A stretch of 64,000 nt of DNA, taken from Alphaproteobacteria bacterium. GTDB lineage: Bacteria > Pseudomonadota > Alphaproteobacteria > JAAXGF01. Below are positions 52,717 through 64,000 of the stretch, in pieces. A program made the translations under genes and the position numbers. The notes beneath the pieces are model-generated. The model was not told where the DNA came from. It did not search any database and saw only the letters and a list, made by a program, of their open reading frames with translations. Location of the stretch: positions 1,440,001 to 1,504,000 of the forward strand of contig CAUVXB020000002.1 of NCBI GenBank assembly GCA_963555825.3, read 5' to 3'. Each line of letters begins with the position of its first letter. The stretch's first letter is position 1.

Positions 52717-53975
<1,259 letters not shown>

Positions 53976-58419: not shown

Positions 58420-58649
58420 TTAATCCCACAAGGCCATTCTTGATCCCACAAAGCCAATTGTCAATGGCGGAGCAAAAAGGGACCACCTCGGCGGTGTAAG
58501 AAGGGACCGCTTGGCGGCTGCGGGCTTGTCCCCGTAGTCCACGGGAGGGCCCCGCGCGCGACGCGGCGTGCCCTCAACAGGCTGACGCGGCGGCGCGCGC
58601 GGGAGGGACCTGTGGGCCCACGGGGTCAAGCGTGGGCTGGGTGGTCGGT

Positions 58650-59414
58650 TCAGTTAGCAGTCGGGGTTTGACGCCTGCGGCTCTGGTTGAGCCTGTAGCT
58701 GTCACCGTTCATCTCGAGGATGTTGACGTGGTGGGTGAGGCGATCGAGGAGCGCGCCGGTGAGGCGCTCGGAGCCGAACACCTCGGTCCATTCGTCGAAG
58801 GGCAGATTGGTGGTGACCAGGGTCGAGCCCCGCTCGTAGCGTTGGCTGAACACCTCGAACAACAGCTCGGCGCCGGTCTTCGACAGCGGCACGAAGCCGA
58901 GTTCGTCGACGATCAGAAGCTTGTAGGTGGCGAGCTTCTTCTGGAACCTCAGCAGCTGCTTGTCATCGCGGGCCTCGATGAGTTCGTGGACCAGCGCGGC
59001 GGCGGTGATGAAGCCGACCGAGAGGCCCTTCTGGCAGGCCGCCAGGCCGAGACCGAGGGCGATGTGGGTCTTGCCGGTCCCACTGTTGCCGAGCGCGATG
59101 AGGTTCTCGCGGCGCTCGATGTACTCGCAGCGGGCCAGCTCCAGGACCAGCGCCTTGTTGAGCGAGGGGATGACCTTGAAGTCGAAGCTGTCGAGGCTCT
59201 TGACCACGGGGAAGCGCGCCGCCTTGATGCGCCGCTCGACCATGCGGCGCTCGCGGTCGATCAGCTCGAGCTCGGCGAGTCTCAACAGGTAGCGGACGTG
59301 ATCGACGCCTTCCGAGGCGCACTGCCGGGCGATCTTGTCGTACTCGCGCAGGAAGGTCGGCAGCTTCAGCGTCTTGAGGTGGTGGGCGAGCAGCACTTGC
59401 GGTGTGTCGGTCAT
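58650..59414 (-). CDS. istB: IS21 helper ATPase
   Basis: GNSGTGKTH, LLIVDELGF, ALLDRLTHH. Confidence 0.95.
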   Translation of the reverse strand: MTDTPQVLLAHHLKTLKLPTFLREYDKIARQCASEGVDHVRYLLRLAELELIDRERRMVERRIKAARFPVVKSLDSFDFKVIPSLNKALVLELARCEYIERRENLIALGNSGTGKTHIALGLGLAACQKGLSVGFITAAALVHELIEARDDKQLLRFQKKLATYKLLIVDELGFVPLSKTGAELLFEVFSQRYERGSTLVTTNLPFDEWTEVFGSERLTGALLDRLTHHVNILEMNGDSYRLNQSRRRQTPTAN

Positions 59415-60119
59415 GCGCCGAGCCCCGACAGCAGGCTCATGTACGACTTGGCGGACGTCATCGCGACCCGGGCGCGCGGCAGATACGGATAGACGTCGAG
59501 GTTGAGCCTGGGCGGCCGCCGCTCGATGCGGCACAGTACCAGGTGCTTCACCGCATCAAAGCCGATTGCGCCGAGCCGCAGGGCGTCGCCGACCGCACCC
59601 TCGACCTCCTCGAGCCGGAAGGTCTCCAGTAGACGGAGCACCTGGACGTACTCGCGCTTGCCTGCCTTGCCCATACGAGCTTCGAGGAGCCGCCGCAGAG
59701 TGATGAAGGCCTCGGGCAGGTCCCAGCCCGCCAATGGCGCGGCCTGGTCGAGGGCGCCGATCTTCTGCTCGATCAAGGGCAGGTAATGCAGCGGGTCGAA
59801 GATCAGGTCCTCGCTGTCGTAGGACCGGCGGTGCCGGGCGATCACCTCGGCCCCGCAGCTGATCACCACCTCATCGACGTAGCCCCGGATGAGCACCTCA
59901 CGGTGGCCGTAGGCCACGGGCACGGAATAGTCGTTGCTGCGGTAACGCACCAGCGACAGCGAACTCGCCCGTCCAGGGCGCTTATCGCAGGCATCATAGG
60001 GAGCAGGCGGCAATGGCAAGAGAACTTGACGATCCCGCTCGAGACGCTCGCCGATGGTCTCCTTGTGAGGCCCCGCAAGCCGCGCCGCCTTCCATTGGCG
60101 CCAGGGCGGGTCGGCGTGT

Positions 60120-60323
60120 TTCGTGCGAGTGATCGCATCACCTTATATCCGGCAGCTCCGATCCGGCTTGATGCTGTATACATGGACCATCACAGGACGG
60201 GGATGGGACTAATCTTGTGGACGGCACCTTCGCCAAGGAGACATGCAGTCACACATCCAACCTGCCAACAAGCGTTCCCATCGGGGAATGAAGCCCGTTA
60301 GAACGCTGAGCTGATCCGCAGTC
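60120..60323 (-). ncRNA. Candidate bridge/seek RNA, copy 1 (boundaries approximate)
   Basis: Guide-like segments at 60235-60244, 60214-60220, 60170-60177 and 60142-60148 match target and donor. Confidence 0.75.
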
Positions 60324-61457
60324 CTATTCGACGACAGCACCCACCGGGATCAGCCCGGTTTCCAGATACCGCCAAAGCGCGATCGCCAGTTTGCGGGCCA
60401 GGGCGACGATCATGACGCGCCTGATGCGCCCCTTCTGACCTTGGGTGCGGTCATGGAACCACTGGGTCAGAGCGCTATCGGGTTGATGGCGGACCCAAAG
60501 CCATGCGGCTTCGATCATGGCAACCCGTGCCAGCCGATTGCCCGCCTTGGAGATGCCTTGGCTGCGGCGCCCGTCGCCGCTGTCATAGGCACTGGGCGTG
60601 ATCCCGATATAGCTTGCCACCTGTCGGCGATTGGCGAACTGGCGATAATAGACTTCCCGTGCGAGCGTCGTGGATAAGGCCGGGCCGAGGCCCTTTAAGC
60701 GCAGCAGCTGGTGACGCTTGCTTTCCGTGGCCACACACGGTGTCGGCGCTTGATCACGCTCACGCTCGACCTCGACGATCTGCGCTTGGACCTGGGCCAG
60801 TCTCGCGATCTCCCGCGCGATCTCGCGGCCGAGACGGTCCGGCAGGGGTCGGCCGTCTCCGGTGACCAGCGCCGCCGGTGTCAAGGTCTTGTAGCGCGCC
60901 TTGACATTGATGCCGCGAATGCCCTGACCGAATAGCAGACCCTTGATCCGGTTGATGTGGGCGGTTCGCTCGCGGACCAATCGGTCACGTTCCCGATGAG
61001 AGCGGCGAAGGTCCTCCTCCGCGACGCTCGGAATCACCACCATGGAGCAGACATGACGCTCGCCGCGGCACCAGGCGATCAGCGTATGAAGAATATTCTC
61101 GACATCGATGCGGTCGGTCTTCACCCGCCGCGCCCGGCGGTTGACCCGCAAGCTGGCCGGCTCCATGACCAGACACTCGATGCCGCGCTGCTCGAGGAAC
61201 CGCGCCAACCAGAAGCCGTCGTAGCCGGCCTCGTAGCACAGCGTTATCGTCGGCGTTCGACCCGTCACCTTGACCACCCGGTCCCGCGCCGCGTCCAGCT
61301 TGGCCATCAGTCCTTCAGCGTCGCCGCCCTTGATCGGATGCAAGCTCGGATTGCCCCGCCCCGGAGCCTGGATCGCCAAAAGCCAGCTGTTCTTGCTCAA
61401 CTCCAGTGCCGCATAAATAGCGTGTTCATTGGAGGTCGATACCGGAAACTGTGCCAT
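60324..61457 (-). CDS. IS110 recombinase (RuvC-like plus Tnp20)
   Basis: ALELSK, CYEAG, KTDRID, GITPSAYDSG, ISKAGN, VALARKL. Confidence 0.93.
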   Translation of the reverse strand: MAQFPVSTSNEHAIYAALELSKNSWLLAIQAPGRGNPSLHPIKGGDAEGLMAKLDAARDRVVKVTGRTPTITLCYEAGYDGFWLARFLEQRGIECLVMEPASLRVNRRARRVKTDRIDVENILHTLIAWCRGERHVCSMVVIPSVAEEDLRRSHRERDRLVRERTAHINRIKGLLFGQGIRGINVKARYKTLTPAALVTGDGRPLPDRLGREIAREIARLAQVQAQIVEVERERDQAPTPCVATESKRHQLLRLKGLGPALSTTLAREVYYRQFANRRQVASYIGITPSAYDSGDGRRSQGISKAGNRLARVAMIEAAWLWVRHQPDSALTQWFHDRTQGQKGRIRRVMIVALARKLAIALWRYLETGLIPVGAVVE

Positions 61458-62496
61458 CGTGTCGCTCCTTCTGATCGAGGTTGAAATAATCGAAGGAGCT
61501 TGAGGCTGCGTCCTTCAGCCTCATAGCATCTTGTGGCCCCGCAGCCGCGCCGCCTGGCGCCGGCGGCACTGTTCGGCGAGAGCATCGTTGAGGGCCGCGA
61601 AGCTCTCGGCACGCGGGACGGGGACCAGGAAGTTCCGCCGGATGAAGCCGACCAGTCCCTCGACCTTGCCCTTGTCGTTGCCCTTGCCCGGCCGGCCGAA
61701 CCTGTCCTCGAACAGATAGTGGGACTGAAGCTCCGTGAAGACGCGCGTTCGCTGCCGCTTCCCATCGCCCAGGATCCGGGCAACCGCCAGCTTGGTGTTG
61801 TCGTACAGGATGGATCGGGGGACGCCGCCGAAGAAGGCAAACGCCGCGTTGTGGCCATCGCAGAATGCTTCGGTCGTCTCCGCCGGATAGGCCGCAACAA
61901 AGCAACCATCACTGTGGGGAAGGTCGAAGGCAAGGAAGTGGATCTTCCGTAACGCGCCGCCGATCACCGCCATCGCTTCGCCGAAGTCCGCCTGGGCGTG
62001 ACCGGGGGAATGGGAGAGTGGCACGAACACCTCACGCGACCGAAGCCCCTGCTCACGAACGTAGTCCTTCACGATGGTGTAGCCGCCCGTGAAACCGTAC
62101 TCGTCCCGGAGGCGGTCGAAGATGCGCTTCGCAGTGTGCCGTTGCTTGCGGTGGCTGGTCCGATCGTCTTCCAAGATCCGATCGATGATTCCCGTGAACG
62201 GACCCAGCTTTGGCCGCCTCGGCGGCGCGCTTCGGCGATACCCTGGCGGCACCGAGAACGACAGCATCTTACGGACCGTCTTGCGGTCTACACCAAACAC
62301 CCGCGAGGCCTCGCGGGTGCTCATCCCCTCGACATGACACGCCCGCCGAACCCGTGCGTACAACTCCACCCGATACATCCCCCCCGCCTTCCAGTCAGAG
62401 CAACCCTGACAGAAGGCTATACGCGGTCCCATTTTGGTCCGCCGCAGCCGGATCGACCGGCCGCTTCAGTGGGGGATTATTGCTCTGCCGTTCTCA

Positions 62497-62733
62497 CCTA
62501 GCCGATTTCAACGGCGACTGGGCCGGGCGAGCATTGGAATTGGTGTCTGCTGGTTCAAGGCCGGCGCCGGCCAGCATATTGCGCGAATGCGTGAAATGTG
62601 CGGCGTTCTTGACGAGATCGGTTATCCAATCACTTGCTGCTGGACGGCGGAACCGGGCTGGCAGATTTATCAGGACGACTTTCAGATCGTCGCGCTCGAC
62701 CACAAGCGTCCGGCCAACGAATGCTGGATGTAG
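62497..62733 (+). pseudogene. 3' remnant of a hypothetical gene truncated by IS21
   Basis: Protein-like tail (CWFK..AGQHIARMRE...PGWQIYQDDFQIVA) starts at the IS end. Confidence 0.4.
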
Positions 62734-62895
62734 TGGACGTTGGGTTCTGGTTGCTTTCGGCGGGGCGCACCCGACGCGCGGTGCCCTTCTCGTCGTGGAT
62801 CGGACGGTGTGCGGCGCGTTGACGCGCCTGTCCATGGTAAGCACACCGGGCTAACATGGAGCGGACAGTCGGCAGAGCAGGGGAGCGCGCCACTC

Positions 62896-63276
62896 ATGGG
62901 CGTCATCGGCATCGAGGAGATATTTCTCAAGGTCAAGGACATGGAGAAGGCGCTCGACTTCTACCACGGCATCGTCGGTCTGCCGATCGACAAGCAAGAC
63001 GGCGAACGCACCTATCTGCAGGCCGAGCGCGGCCACATCGTGCTGCAGATCGAGAACCACACCGGTCGCCACCAGGGCGGCGGCCCACTGCACTTCGCCT
63101 TCACCGTCAGCGAGGAGACCTTCGACGAGATTTTGGCGAAGTTCGCCGGCGGCACACACTTCACCCGCGGCCCCTACGGCGAGCGCGGCGCGGGCCGGGC
63201 GTTCTTTATGATCGACCCCGACGGCAACGAGGCGGAAGTCAACACCCGCTACTTATACGGCGCGCCGATGCGCTGA
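62896..63276 (+). CDS. VOC/glyoxalase family protein
   Basis: VKDMEKALDFY, HFAF, DPDGNEAE. Confidence 0.85.
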   Translation: MGVIGIEEIFLKVKDMEKALDFYHGIVGLPIDKQDGERTYLQAERGHIVLQIENHTGRHQGGGPLHFAFTVSEETFDEILAKFAGGTHFTRGPYGERGAGRAFFMIDPDGNEAEVNTRYLYGAPMR

Positions 63277-63416
63277 GGCGCCGACGATTAGATCGATGGC
63301 CACCGGCTTTGCACCGCGCCTGAGTGCGCCCTAGAAGCAATCGGCTGCCCAATCGGAAAGCGATGTCCGCTCACCGCTTGGAACCGGACGTCGGAGACGA
63401 GGTCGCTCGATGTCTC

Positions 63417-64000
63417 CTTATATGAGGCGTTTGCTGTCAAGGTGGATTTAATCTACGCCACATGATCGTCTCTTCCATTGGTTATGGCTTTGTATCCAGG
63501 GCGGGTCTTGCGATGAGTTCCGTGTTTCGTGCGAGTGATCGCATCACCTTATATCCGGCAGCTCCGATCCGGCTTGCCACAATGCTGTATACATGGACCA
63601 TCACAGGACGGGGATGGGACTAATCTTGTGGACGGCACCTTCGCCAAGGAGACATGCAGTCACACATCCAACCTGCCAACAAGCGTTCCCATCGGGGAAT
63701 GAAGCCCGTTAGAACGCTGAGCTGATCCGCAGTCCTATTTGACGACAGCACCCACCGGGATCAGCCCGGTTTCCAGATACCGCCAAAGCGCGATCGCCAG
63801 TTTGCGGGCCAGGGCGACGATCATGACGCGCCTGATGCGCCCCTTCTGACCTTGGGTGCGGTCATGGAACCACTGGGTCAGAGCGCTATCGGGTTGATGG
63901 CGGACCCAAAGCCATGCGGCTTCGATCATGGCAACCCGTGCCAGCCGATTGCCCGCCTTGGAGATGCCTTGGCTGCGGCGCCCGTCGCCGCTGTCATAGG
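63417..64000 (-). mobile_element. IS110 (IS1111-type) element, copy 2, partial; recombinase 3' end at 63735-64000
   Basis: Near-identical to copy 1; clean end ATGTCTC|CTTATATGAGGC. Confidence 0.9.
63430..63734 (-). ncRNA. Candidate bridge/seek RNA, copy 2 (boundaries approximate)
   Basis: Guide-like segments at 63646-63655, 63625-63631, about 63582-63588 and 63548-63554. Confidence 0.75.

What the first reader, a model, noticed from the sequence alone, without database searches (positions are those of the whole stretch)
60055..64000. IS1111-type bridge-RNA recombinase with target and donor guides readable from the sequence
Seen: junctions on the + strand are ATGTCTC|CT|TATAT (63410-63423), ATAGCAT|CT|TGTGG (61523-61536) and TGGTCTC|CT (60055-60063). 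These reconstruct a target of about ATGTCTC-CT-TGTGG and a circle-junction donor ATAGCAT-CT-TATAT. The non-coding region 3' of the recombinase, read on the coding strand, contains four segments in order: ATGTCTCCTT (rc of 60235-60244); after a small GGC..GCC hairpin, CCACAAG (rc of 60214-60220); ACAGCATC (rc of 60170-60177); and after a CCGG stem, ATATAAG (rc of 60142-60148). Known: this is the left/right target-guide and left/right donor-guide layout, with a 7+CT+5 site, described for the IS621 bridge RNA, and IS1111-group elements carry the RNA downstream of the gene. Inference: this is a probably uncharacterised programmable RNA-guided recombinase with its own target specificity. The class of system is known; whether this member is new needs a search.
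Basis: partly seen in the sequence, partly recalled or inferred. Interest (0 to 1): 0.9.

Follow-up and report, generated by a model that had tools for sequence, protein, structure and literature searches.

The report
Bridge-RNA insertion sequence, IS1111-like layout
This is a recently active IS110-family insertion sequence whose 3' non-coding RNA carries readable guides for its own insertion site, a new example of the already known bridge-RNA (seekRNA) recombinases rather than a new kind of system.

Summary
Every string is at the stated coordinates.

- **The element.** It is 1522 bp between two CT cores. It has a 377-aa IS110-family recombinase, 8-bp subterminal inverted repeats, a 72-nt left end and a 316-nt right end.
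- **Copies.** The genome holds 11 near-identical full copies at 5 distinct sites. Their flanks give xxGTCTC-CT-T(G/A)TG(G/A), matching the RNA segments ATGTCTCCT and CCACAAG.
- **Guide covariation.** In relatives from the 80 fetched loci, these two segments change together with the flanks. No permutation of 10000 reached the observed match for either guide.
- **Fold.** A two-loop fold has 92% of cells paired and 31 of 41 pairs with compensatory changes. A model built on it hits downstream of the gene in 73 of 80 loci.

- The copy at 60064-61529 is aberrant. Its outer right end is replaced and 5 conserved bases are missing.
- Because of that deletion, the "ACAGCATC" donor guide exists only in this copy.
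- The "CCGG stem" is really a different hairpin.
- By protein sequence the clade is far from classical IS1111 members (24% identity to IS4321).

Verdict: a new member of a known kind, of moderate interest.

The parts
63419..64000 (-). Intact copy ('copy B'), right-end part. The element runs on past the window end to G000:C2:1504940. It is 1522 bp between CT cores.
   Evidence: 100% identical over 1522 bp to the reference copy. Flanks are CGATGTCTC|CT| ... |CT|TGTGATG.
63501..63673 (-). Bridge (seek) RNA core of the intact copy: target-binding loop followed by donor-binding loop.
   Evidence: Covariance model R1 scores 202.5 bits here. The fold is supported by covariation.
63647..63655 (-). Left target guide ATGTCTCCT (7 nt plus core), 5' strand of the target loop.
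   Evidence: Identical to the left flank plus core at 3 of 5 sites and 5 of 7 at the other two. It covaries with flanks in relatives. Column entropy is 1.71 bits.
63623..63631 (-). Right target guide CCACAAG (63625-63631) followed by AT (63623-63624), a possible handshake dinucleotide. This is the 3' strand of the target loop.
   Evidence: It is the reverse complement of CT+TGTGG. The AT equals the first two bases of the left end, but this is not conserved in relatives.
63582..63588 (-). Left donor guide region ACAGCAT, 5' strand of the donor loop.
   Evidence: 6 of 7 bases match the element end ATAGCAT. The G/C position changes together with the left end in 9 loci, with 4 exceptions.
63548..63554 (-). 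Right donor guide ATATAAG, 3' strand of the donor loop.
   Evidence: It is the reverse complement of CT+TATAT, the right-end terminus. It is nearly invariant in 58 distinct sequences, at 0.14 bits.
63421..63428 (+). Subterminal inverted repeat TATGAGGC at the right end. Its partner GCCTCATA lies at the left end (61518-61525 in copy A).
   Evidence: Read from the ends of all 11 full copies.
63362..63418 (+). REP-like repeat (hairpin CCGCTTGGAACCGGAC ... ATGTCTCCT) that supplies the left half of copy B's target.
   Evidence: The same repeat family occurs elsewhere in the genome, and site 5 lies in one too.
60064..61529 (-). Aberrant copy ('copy A') inserted in the istA gene of an IS21-family element, with CT cores at 60062-60063 and 61530-61531.
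   Evidence: It aligns to element positions 103-1522 at 99.6%. The outer right end is a mosaic that resembles the istA right flank, and 5 nt are missing.
60324..61457 (-). Recombinase gene, 377 aa. Acidic residues are E19, E76, D115 and D118. S293 lies in the G-x-x-P-x4-S-G motif.
   Evidence: Pfam and NCBIfam. S293 aligns with the SG of IS621 and ISCro4.
60095..60262 (-). Damaged bridge-RNA region of copy A.
   Evidence: Model R1 scores 130 bits here, against 202.5 for the intact copy. It lacks the 5' strand of stem P4 and the 3' strand of the basal donor stem.
61458..61529 (-). Left end, 72 nt, with a hairpin that can pair CTCCTTC with the ribosome-binding site GAAGGAG.
   Evidence: Sequence; the block is conserved in relatives. 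The pairing is my own reading and was not tested.
58650..62496 (-). Host IS21-family element. It comprises istB (58650-59534), the istA C-terminal piece (59411-60019) and the istA N-terminal piece (61521-62432). It extends left of 58500.
   Evidence: Pfam IstB_IS21, Mu-transpos_C_2 and rve. About 80 copies are in the genome, mostly 100% identical.

Best explanation
This is an insertion sequence of the IS110 family with the IS1111-type layout. It has a short left end, the recombinase gene, then a long right end that encodes a bridge RNA (seekRNA) on the coding strand.

The RNA has two modules.
- **Target loop.** It is closed by stem P1 and split by a small hairpin P2. Its 5' strand (ATGTCTCCT) has the sequence of the left half-site plus the CT core, so it pairs with the bottom strand. 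Its 3' strand (CCACAAG) is complementary to the core plus the right half-site on the top strand.
- **Donor loop.** It is closed by a long stem P3+P6, with a distal hairpin P4 and a side hairpin P5. It presents (A)CAGCAT and ATATAAG, which match the two element ends as joined in a circle (ATAGCAT-CT-TATAT).

The recombinase-RNA complex would synapse the circle junction with a target close to ATGTCTC-CT-TGTGG and exchange strands at the CT core. That inserts the element without a duplication beyond the shared core. In this genome the commonest near-cognate target lies inside the istA gene of an ~80-copy IS21-family element.

**Shown here:** family membership of the protein, element ends, 5 target sites, guide/flank covariation and stem covariation.

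**Inferred from relatives studied by others** (IS621, ISEc11 and others): that the RNA is made, binds the protein and directs recombination; the circle intermediate; and a junction promoter.
For: **Protein.**
- Pfam DEDD_Tnp_IS110 + Transposase_20.
- NCBIfam NF033542 'IS110 family RNA-guided transposase', 204 bits against a cut-off of 140.
- The C-terminal domain aligns to the IS621 and ISCro4 structures, with S293 on their catalytic SG.

**Activity.**
- 11 full copies are 99.87-100% identical.

**Target.**
- Flanks of the 11 copies fall into 5 sites: TGGTCTC-CT-TGTGG (7 copies, in istA), ATGTCTC-CT-TATGG, ATGTCTC-CT-TGTGA, TCGTCTC-CT-TGTGG and ATGTCTC-CT-TGTGA.
- An empty paralogue of site 4 carries a single CT.
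- 69 empty istA sites exist, and no empty perfect 14-mer.

**Guide covariation.**
- Left guide against left half-site: 21 distinct guide/flank pairs match 5.14 of 7 when cognate and 2.29 when not. No permutation of 10000 reached this.
- Right guide: 23 pairs, 4.96 against 2.62, again 0 of 10000.

**Variability.**
- Guide columns are hypervariable (1.71 and 1.49 bits).
- The right donor guide is nearly fixed (0.14 bits).

**Fold.**
- On 58 distinct sequences 92.3% of cells pair, and 31 of 41 pairs have changes on both sides.
- The covariation score is 0.352, against 0.037-0.075 when partners are slid.
- G-U pairs, for example U-G in 36 sequences at one pair, fit only the coding strand.
- The guides lie in the unpaired strands.

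**Distribution.**
- The model finds the RNA downstream of the gene in 73 of 80 loci.

**Layout rule.**
- The match to the top strand (in gene orientation) lies 5' of the bottom-strand match, as reported for IS1111-type seekRNAs (read in PMC11187229, section 9).

**Circle junction.**
- Joining the ends in a script gives TTGACA-17 nt-GATGCT across the junction.
Against: - There are no expression data. No public run holds more than 0.21 of the sampled words.
- No sigma-70-like promoter or intrinsic terminator is found in the right end.
- Single-sequence folding is no better than shuffles, with z = +0.87 and +1.72.
- Rfam 15 has no match.
- The stem counts come from an alignment fitted to my own structure, which leans towards it.
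- The homologues are related, so the permutation counts are not true probabilities.
- Donor-side pairing is weaker than target-side. The left donor guide matches 6 of 7 with no clean core pairing, and 4 loci break the one covarying position.
- Handshake dinucleotides do not covary in relatives.
- The first acidic catalytic residue is Glu, not Asp.
Confidence: 0.9

Rival explanations
1. Only the first module is a guide (a short seekRNA). The second, highly conserved module is a protein-binding scaffold. The element ends are recognised by the protein through the subterminal inverted repeats, not by RNA pairing.
For: - For ISEc11, a short 82-nt seekRNA supported movement better than the long form (passage read in PMC11187229).
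- The donor-side segments here hardly vary (0.14 bits), so covariation cannot prove pairing.
- The left donor guide is imperfect, and 4 loci break its one covarying position.
Against: - ATATAAG is the exact complement of core plus right terminus, 7 of 7.
- The left-end change ATGCT to ATCCT is matched by AGCAT to AGGAT in 9 loci.
- The same two-loop logic is shown experimentally for IS621 (PMC11208160, passages read).
- Both segments lie in unpaired strands of a loop whose flanking stems covary.
Confidence: 0.2
2. The matches between the non-coding region and the flanks do not act through RNA. They reflect DNA-level recognition, or sequence captured from flanks.
For: - No RNA data are available for this element.
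- No promoter was found in the right end.
Against: - Stems covary with G-U pairs that fit one strand only.
- The guides change with the flanks in relatives, while the rest of the module stays fixed.
- The protein belongs to a family for which RNA guidance is shown.
Confidence: 0.03
3. The copy at 60064-61529 is a working variant with new donor specificity (right end TGTGA..., donor guide ACAGCATC).
For: - Its recombinase frame is open, at 377 aa.
- ACAGCATC matches ATAGCAT-C one base further than the intact form does.
Against: - It is a single copy, against 11 of the standard form.
- It lacks bases that are conserved across the aligned relatives: T103, G104 and G105 are invariant in all 27 aligned sequences.
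- It lacks the 3' strand of the basal donor stem.
- It scores 130 bits against 202.5 for the intact copy.
- Its right donor guide is still ATATAAG, which no longer matches its own terminus.
Confidence: 0.04

Closest known systems
IS1111-type elements with a downstream seekRNA (ISEc11, ISKpn4, ISPa11, ISPst6; Siddiquee et al. 2024, PMC11187229)
   Same: - Long non-coding region downstream of the gene.
- Subterminal inverted repeats.
- Two short target matches, with the top-strand match 5' of the bottom-strand match.
- No target duplication.
- The ends can form a -35/-10 pair when abutted.
   Different: - The protein is 377 aa. That paper gives 330-350 aa for IS1111 transposases.
- It is only 24% identical to an IS4321-family transposase.
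- The inverted repeat is 8 bp rather than the usual 11-13 bp.
- The first catalytic acid is Glu.
IS621 / ISCro4 bridge recombinases (Durrant 2024, PMC11208160; Hiraizumi 2024, PMC11208158; PDB 8wt6, 9t56)
   Same: - Two-loop RNA.
[quoted passage not shown]
- CT core.
- 7 + 2 + 5 site.
- Catalytic SG motif.
   Different: - The RNA lies 3' of the gene, and the element is inverted relative to the core.
- Only residues 218-369 align, at E about 1e-8.
- The donor loop is a three-way junction with an extra hairpin.
- Handshake pairing is not supported by covariation.
ISRel9-family transposase (name given by the record's annotation, Agrobacterium plasmid NZ_CP039694.1)
   Same: - It is the closest named relative found, at 44% identity over the full length.
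- It has the same Glu in the first acidic position.
   Different: - Model R1 finds no match in that locus.
- Its downstream spacer before the next gene is only about 135 nt.
ISEc21, an IS110-family element that targets a conserved site inside IS3-family transposase genes (PMC11187229, section 12)
   Same: It is an RNA-guided IS whose preferred target lies in the transposase gene of another IS.
   Different: - ISEc21 has its RNA upstream of the gene and the opposite guide order.
- The host here is an IS21-family istA gene.

Membership tests
IS110 family (RNA-guided DEDD recombinases) | RuvC-like N-terminal domain plus Tnp C-terminal domain, passing curated family models | tested here: met
   PF01548 and PF02371 both score above their cut-offs. 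NF033542 scores 204.4 bits against a cut-off of 140, covering residues 15-368.
IS110 family (RNA-guided DEDD recombinases) | Four acidic catalytic residues (D-E-D-D) and a catalytic Ser in an SG motif | tested here: met
   E19, E76, D115 and D118 were placed by alignment with an IS4321-family protein. S293 aligns with the SG of IS621. The first residue is Glu rather than Asp, here and in most of the 80 loci. That is a conservative departure.
IS110 family (RNA-guided DEDD recombinases) | Site-specific insertion at a core dinucleotide without further target duplication | tested here: met
   An empty paralogue of site 4 has one CT where the filled site has one on each side. The same holds for the 69 empty istA sites.
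IS1111 group | Subterminal inverted repeats (7-17 bp in PMC11208160; usually 11-13 bp in PMC11187229) | tested here: met
   TATGAGGC / GCCTCATA, 8 bp, lies 2 and 4 nt inside the ends. This is at the short end of the range.
IS1111 group | Longer non-coding region, with the RNA, downstream of the gene | tested here: met
   The left end is 72 nt and the right end 316 nt. The RNA model hits downstream in 73 of 80 loci.
IS1111 group | Top-strand target match 5' of the bottom-strand match in the RNA | tested here: met
   In gene orientation the 5' segment is complementary to the flank AGGAGACAT, and the 3' segment is identical to the flank CCACAAG.
IS1111 group | Transposase related over its full length to that of IS1111, 330-350 aa | tested here: inconclusive
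   The protein is 377 aa. It is 24% identical to an IS4321-family protein over residues 58-362. No IS1111 reference or ISfinder tree was available.
Bridge RNA / seekRNA | Guide segments in unpaired loop strands that match both strands of the target around the core | tested here: met
   The flanking stems P1 and P2 are 96.7% and 97.1% paired, with compensatory changes.
Bridge RNA / seekRNA | Guides covary with the target across relatives | tested here: met
   0 of 10000 permutations reach the observed match, for either guide.
Bridge RNA / seekRNA | A second loop pairs with the donor (joined ends) | tested here: inconclusive
   The right donor guide matches 7 of 7 but is invariant. The left donor guide matches 6 of 7. 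One position covaries in 9 loci and fails in 4.
Bridge RNA / seekRNA | The RNA is expressed, binds the recombinase and is needed for recombination | not testable with these tools
   No run holds the sequence. This needs bench work.

The most novel reading that the evidence does not exclude
The clade to which this element belongs may be a separate deep lineage of bridge recombinases, neither classical IS1111 nor IS110/IS621. Its features are:
- Glu in place of the first catalytic Asp;
- proteins of about 375-390 aa;
- 24% identity to IS4321;
- only C-terminal similarity to IS621;
- an IS1111-like layout;
- a three-way-junction donor loop.

It would offer an orthogonal, naturally IS-targeting programmable recombinase.

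A bolder side reading concerns the two damaged copies, in which istA right-flank sequence replaces the right end. They could be scars of failed RNA-guided excision repaired from empty IS21 copies, rather than assembly errors.
Probability: 0.25. Interest if true: 0.55.

Novelty: new member of a known kind. Interest (0 to 1): 0.35.

Why it matters
Bridge and seekRNA recombinases are being developed as programmable tools for inserting, deleting and inverting DNA. New orthologues with clean, readable guides are useful starting material.

This one comes with an unusually complete natural data set:
- 11 identical copies;
- 5 natural target sites that show which mismatches are tolerated (left positions 1-2 and right positions 2 and 5);
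- an empty-site control;
- dozens of relatives whose guides have drifted with their targets.

It also shows one mobile element homing into the transposase gene of another. Ten occupied istA sites stand against 69 empty ones.

It does not change what is known about the mechanism.

Tried and rejected
- **Rfam 15**, permissive threshold over 59000-64000: no match. No curated family covers this RNA.
- **Single-sequence folding** of 314 nt and 161 nt: no better than shuffles. The fold came from comparison instead.
- **A handshake-style reading of TGTGG.** In intact copies TGTGG follows the left donor guide and equals the right half-site. I rejected this reading because the same bases are conserved in relatives with other targets, and TGGC pairs with GCCG in stem P4.
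Rejected. Many relatives have CCGT on the 5' side. The change A to G with T to C in L022 supports AGC/GCT pairing instead.
- **Homology between the intact right end and the istA right flank.** The local alignment score is weak (26). Only the aberrant copy resembles the flank.
- **A break point in the left-guide DNA as a pseudo-target.** I considered this for two fragments. One covers about element positions 1-232, at G000:C1:1251402-1251632. The other covers positions 236-283, at window 52951-52998. The joined sequences do not look like element ends or targets. This stays unexplained.
- **Whether the aberrant copy is an assembly artefact.** Undecided.
  - For an artefact: the mosaic takes each aligned column from either the right end or the empty istA sequence. 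The second damaged copy differs from the reference almost only by deletions.
  - Against: of the long IS21 hits listed, most are 100% identical to the query with no gaps.
  - Reads could not be consulted. No run holds more than 0.21 of the sampled words.
- **Literature.**
  - 'ISRel9' gave 0 papers.
  - 'IS110 / IS21 / istA / bridge RNA' gave nothing on an IS110-family element that targets istA (listing only).
  - ISfinder cannot be queried. The supplementary tables of PMC11208160 and PMC11187229 are closed and may already list this element or a close relative. ISAzs32 and ISHne5 are named in a legend.
- **Papers, and how much of each I read.**
  - PMC11187229: outline, sections 6, 9, 12 and 13, and passages.
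  - PMC11208160, PMC11208158 and PMC13626964: passages and outline.
  - PMC12288879: abstract and outline only.

Full report
**What is in the region.**

The stretch 58650-62496 is an IS21-family element on the - strand. It holds istB, and an istA gene split into a C-terminal piece (59411-60019) and an N-terminal piece (61521-62432). The split is caused by an inserted element at 60064-61529. That element encodes a 377-aa protein with Pfam DEDD_Tnp_IS110 and Transposase_20. The protein matches NCBIfam NF033542, 'IS110 family RNA-guided transposase', at 204 bits against a cut-off of 140.

A second copy of the same element begins at 63419 and runs off the window. Between the two lie a glyoxalase-family gene (62896-63276) and a REP-like repeat (63362-63418).

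**The observation.**

**Copies and ends.**

The window is G000:C2:1440001-1504000. The genome holds 11 full copies of 1522 bp that are 99.87-100% identical. It also holds the window's first copy (positions 103-1522 only), a copy truncated at position 273, and smaller fragments.

All full copies read CT|TATATGAGGC...GCCTCATAGCAT|CT. There is an 8-bp subterminal inverted repeat.

Seven copies lie at one site in istA (GATGGTCTC|CT|TGTGGCC). The other four lie at TATGTCTC|CT|TATGGC, GATGTCTC|CT|TGTGAT, CTCGTCTC|CT|TGTGGA and AATGTCTC|CT|TGTGAC. Whether the seven istA insertions are independent events cannot be told, so I count five sites.

An empty paralogue of the fourth site has a single CT. The genome has 69 empty istA sites (TGGTCTCCTTGTGG) and no empty perfect ATGTCTCCTTGTGG.

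Two of the five sites lie in a REP-like repeat, right next to the ends of other repeated elements.

**The guides.**

On the coding strand of the intact copy, the right end reads:

...GGATGTGTGACTGC-ATGTCTCCT-T-GGCGAAGGTGCC-GT-CCACAAG-AT-TAGTCCCATCC...

and further on:

...TATACAGCATTG-[hairpin]-GATATAAGGT...

- ATGTCTCCT is the left half-site plus core.
- CCACAAG is the complement of core plus right half-site.
- ATATAAG is the complement of core plus the right-end terminus.
- ACAGCAT matches the left-end terminus ATAGCAT in 6 of 7 bases.

This follows the IS621 rule: the 5' strand of a loop pairs with the bottom strand, and the 3' strand pairs with the top strand, each including the core (PMC11208160, passages). 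In gene orientation the order is top-strand match first. That is the order reported for IS1111-type seekRNAs and the reverse of IS110-type (PMC11187229, abstract and section 9).

**Relatives.**

A scan of one genome per species returned 80 loci at 49-89% protein identity, mostly Alphaproteobacteria. A protein search also found many metagenomic relatives at 85-90% identity.

In loci L001-L032 the ends (AG|ATGCTATGAGG... and ...CTCATATA|AG in gene orientation) and the donor module are conserved. The two target segments differ.

I took every locus where a flank could be read and dropped duplicate guide/flank pairs.
- The left guide matches its own flank at 5.14 of 7 positions, against 2.29 for other loci's flanks (21 pairs, 15 distinct guides).
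- The right guide matches at 4.96 against 2.62 (23 pairs, 14 distinct guides).
- No permutation of 10000 reached either observed value.

Poor cases are included in these means. L025 matches 0 of 7, and L021, L022 and L027 match 3 of 7. The sequences are related, so these counts are not probabilities. Even so, many different guides are involved.

**The fold.**

From the alignments I wrote a structure with these parts:
- P1 closes the target loop.
- P2 is the small hairpin between the two target guides.
- P3+P6 form a 14-bp basal stem of the donor module.
- P4 is its distal hairpin.
- P5 is a side hairpin after the right donor guide.

A covariance model built on 8 close sequences hits both window copies. 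It also hits 73 of 80 loci, always downstream of the gene on its strand. It gives a second hit in two loci, and 7 loci have none.

On the resulting alignment of 58 distinct sequences:
- 92.3% of cells pair.
- 31 of 41 pairs change on both sides.
- The covariation score is 0.352, against 0.136 for shuffles and 0.037-0.075 for slid partners.

The alignment is fitted to the model, which favours the structure. Frequent G-U pairs fit only the coding strand. The guides lie in the unpaired strands.

Guide columns are hypervariable (1.71 and 1.49 bits), while ATATAAG is nearly fixed (0.14 bits).

- Its first ~100 bp of right end are replaced by 51 bp that read like the istA sequence to the right of the target, with a few right-end bases left in.
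- Five bases are missing next to the donor guide.
- Those five bases are conserved across the aligned relatives (T103, G104 and G105 are invariant) and form the 5' strand of P4.
- 'ACAGCATC' is therefore a product of the deletion.
- The copy also lacks the 3' strand of the basal donor stem. It scores 130 bits against 202.5 for the intact copy.
- Its terminus no longer matches its own ATATAAG.

It is most likely immobile, if it is real. A second copy (G000:C2:1618223-1619456) has ~105 bp of empty-site sequence in place of the right end. It differs from the reference almost only by deletions.

I cannot say whether these two copies are polishing artefacts or repair scars. The ~80 IS21 copies are otherwise almost all identical without gaps, and no reads are available.

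**Placement.**

The layout is IS1111-like. The protein is only 24% identical to an IS4321-family transposase. It aligns to IS621 and ISCro4 only over residues 218-369. The closest named relative is an ISRel9-family protein at 44% identity.

The first catalytic acid is Glu (A-L/I-E-L-S-K) here, in the ISRel9-family protein and in most of the 80 loci.

**Expression.**

No promoter or terminator is predicted in the right end. Abutting the ends gives TTGACA-17 nt-GATGCT. That fits the junction promoters described for this family (PMC11187229, introduction passage). This is inference only.

**Verdict.**

This is a real, recently active bridge-RNA insertion sequence with a readable target. The class has been known since 2024. 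It is a new member, or possibly an already listed one. Its interest lies in its clean natural data set and in its somewhat separate clade.

Noticed in passing
window 60064-60114 and 60170; G000:C2:1618223-1619500: Two copies of the element in istA have their outer right end replaced by sequence identical to the empty istA site beyond the target (about 27 and 105 bp). Clustered small deletions lie near the join. Either this is a polishing artefact at a repeat junction, or it is repair templated from empty IS21 copies.
   Followed up: partly
window 52951-52998: A 48-bp piece, 100% identical to element positions 236-283 (between the stop codon and the left target guide), sits alone inside unrelated sequence. 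A separate fragment at G000:C1:1251402-1251632 ends about 4 bases away on the other side of the same point.
   Followed up: partly
recombinase residue 19 (window about 61401-61403, - strand); loci L001-L080: The first residue of the catalytic acidic tetrad is Glu (motif A-L/I-E-L-S-K) in this protein, in an ISRel9-family protein and in most of the 80 related loci. IS4321 has Asp at the aligned position.
   Followed up: partly
window 58500-62496 and genome-wide: The host IS21-family element is present in about 80 copies across both contigs, most 100% identical. That is a very recent expansion. Ten of its copies carry this element or a remnant at the same istA position.
   Followed up: partly
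window 63362-63418; about two dozen places in G000: There is a REP-like repeat: a hairpin ACCGCTCCGAAGCGGAC, then about 20 nt, then A-x-GTCT(G/C)CT. Its 3' motif abuts the ends of at least two other multi-copy elements (about 15 and 30 copies). Several site-specific elements in this genome therefore seem to home to the same repeat.
   Followed up: partly
just beyond the window, G000:C2:1504941-1505200: The intact copy is inserted about 110 bp upstream of another gene. That gene starts MEVTTIGVDLAKNVFQVHG..., which reads like a second, different IS110-family transposase.
   Followed up: no
window 61458-61510 (- strand): In the left end, CTCCTTC can pair with the ribosome-binding site GAAGGAG just before the start codon. 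Both blocks are conserved in relatives. This is a possible translational brake.
   Followed up: no
L018-L032: In one group of relatives the right junction reads ...CATATA|AA| while the left junction reads |AG|, and the left target guide ends in TT. This suggests a target core (AA) that differs from the donor core (AG).
   Followed up: no
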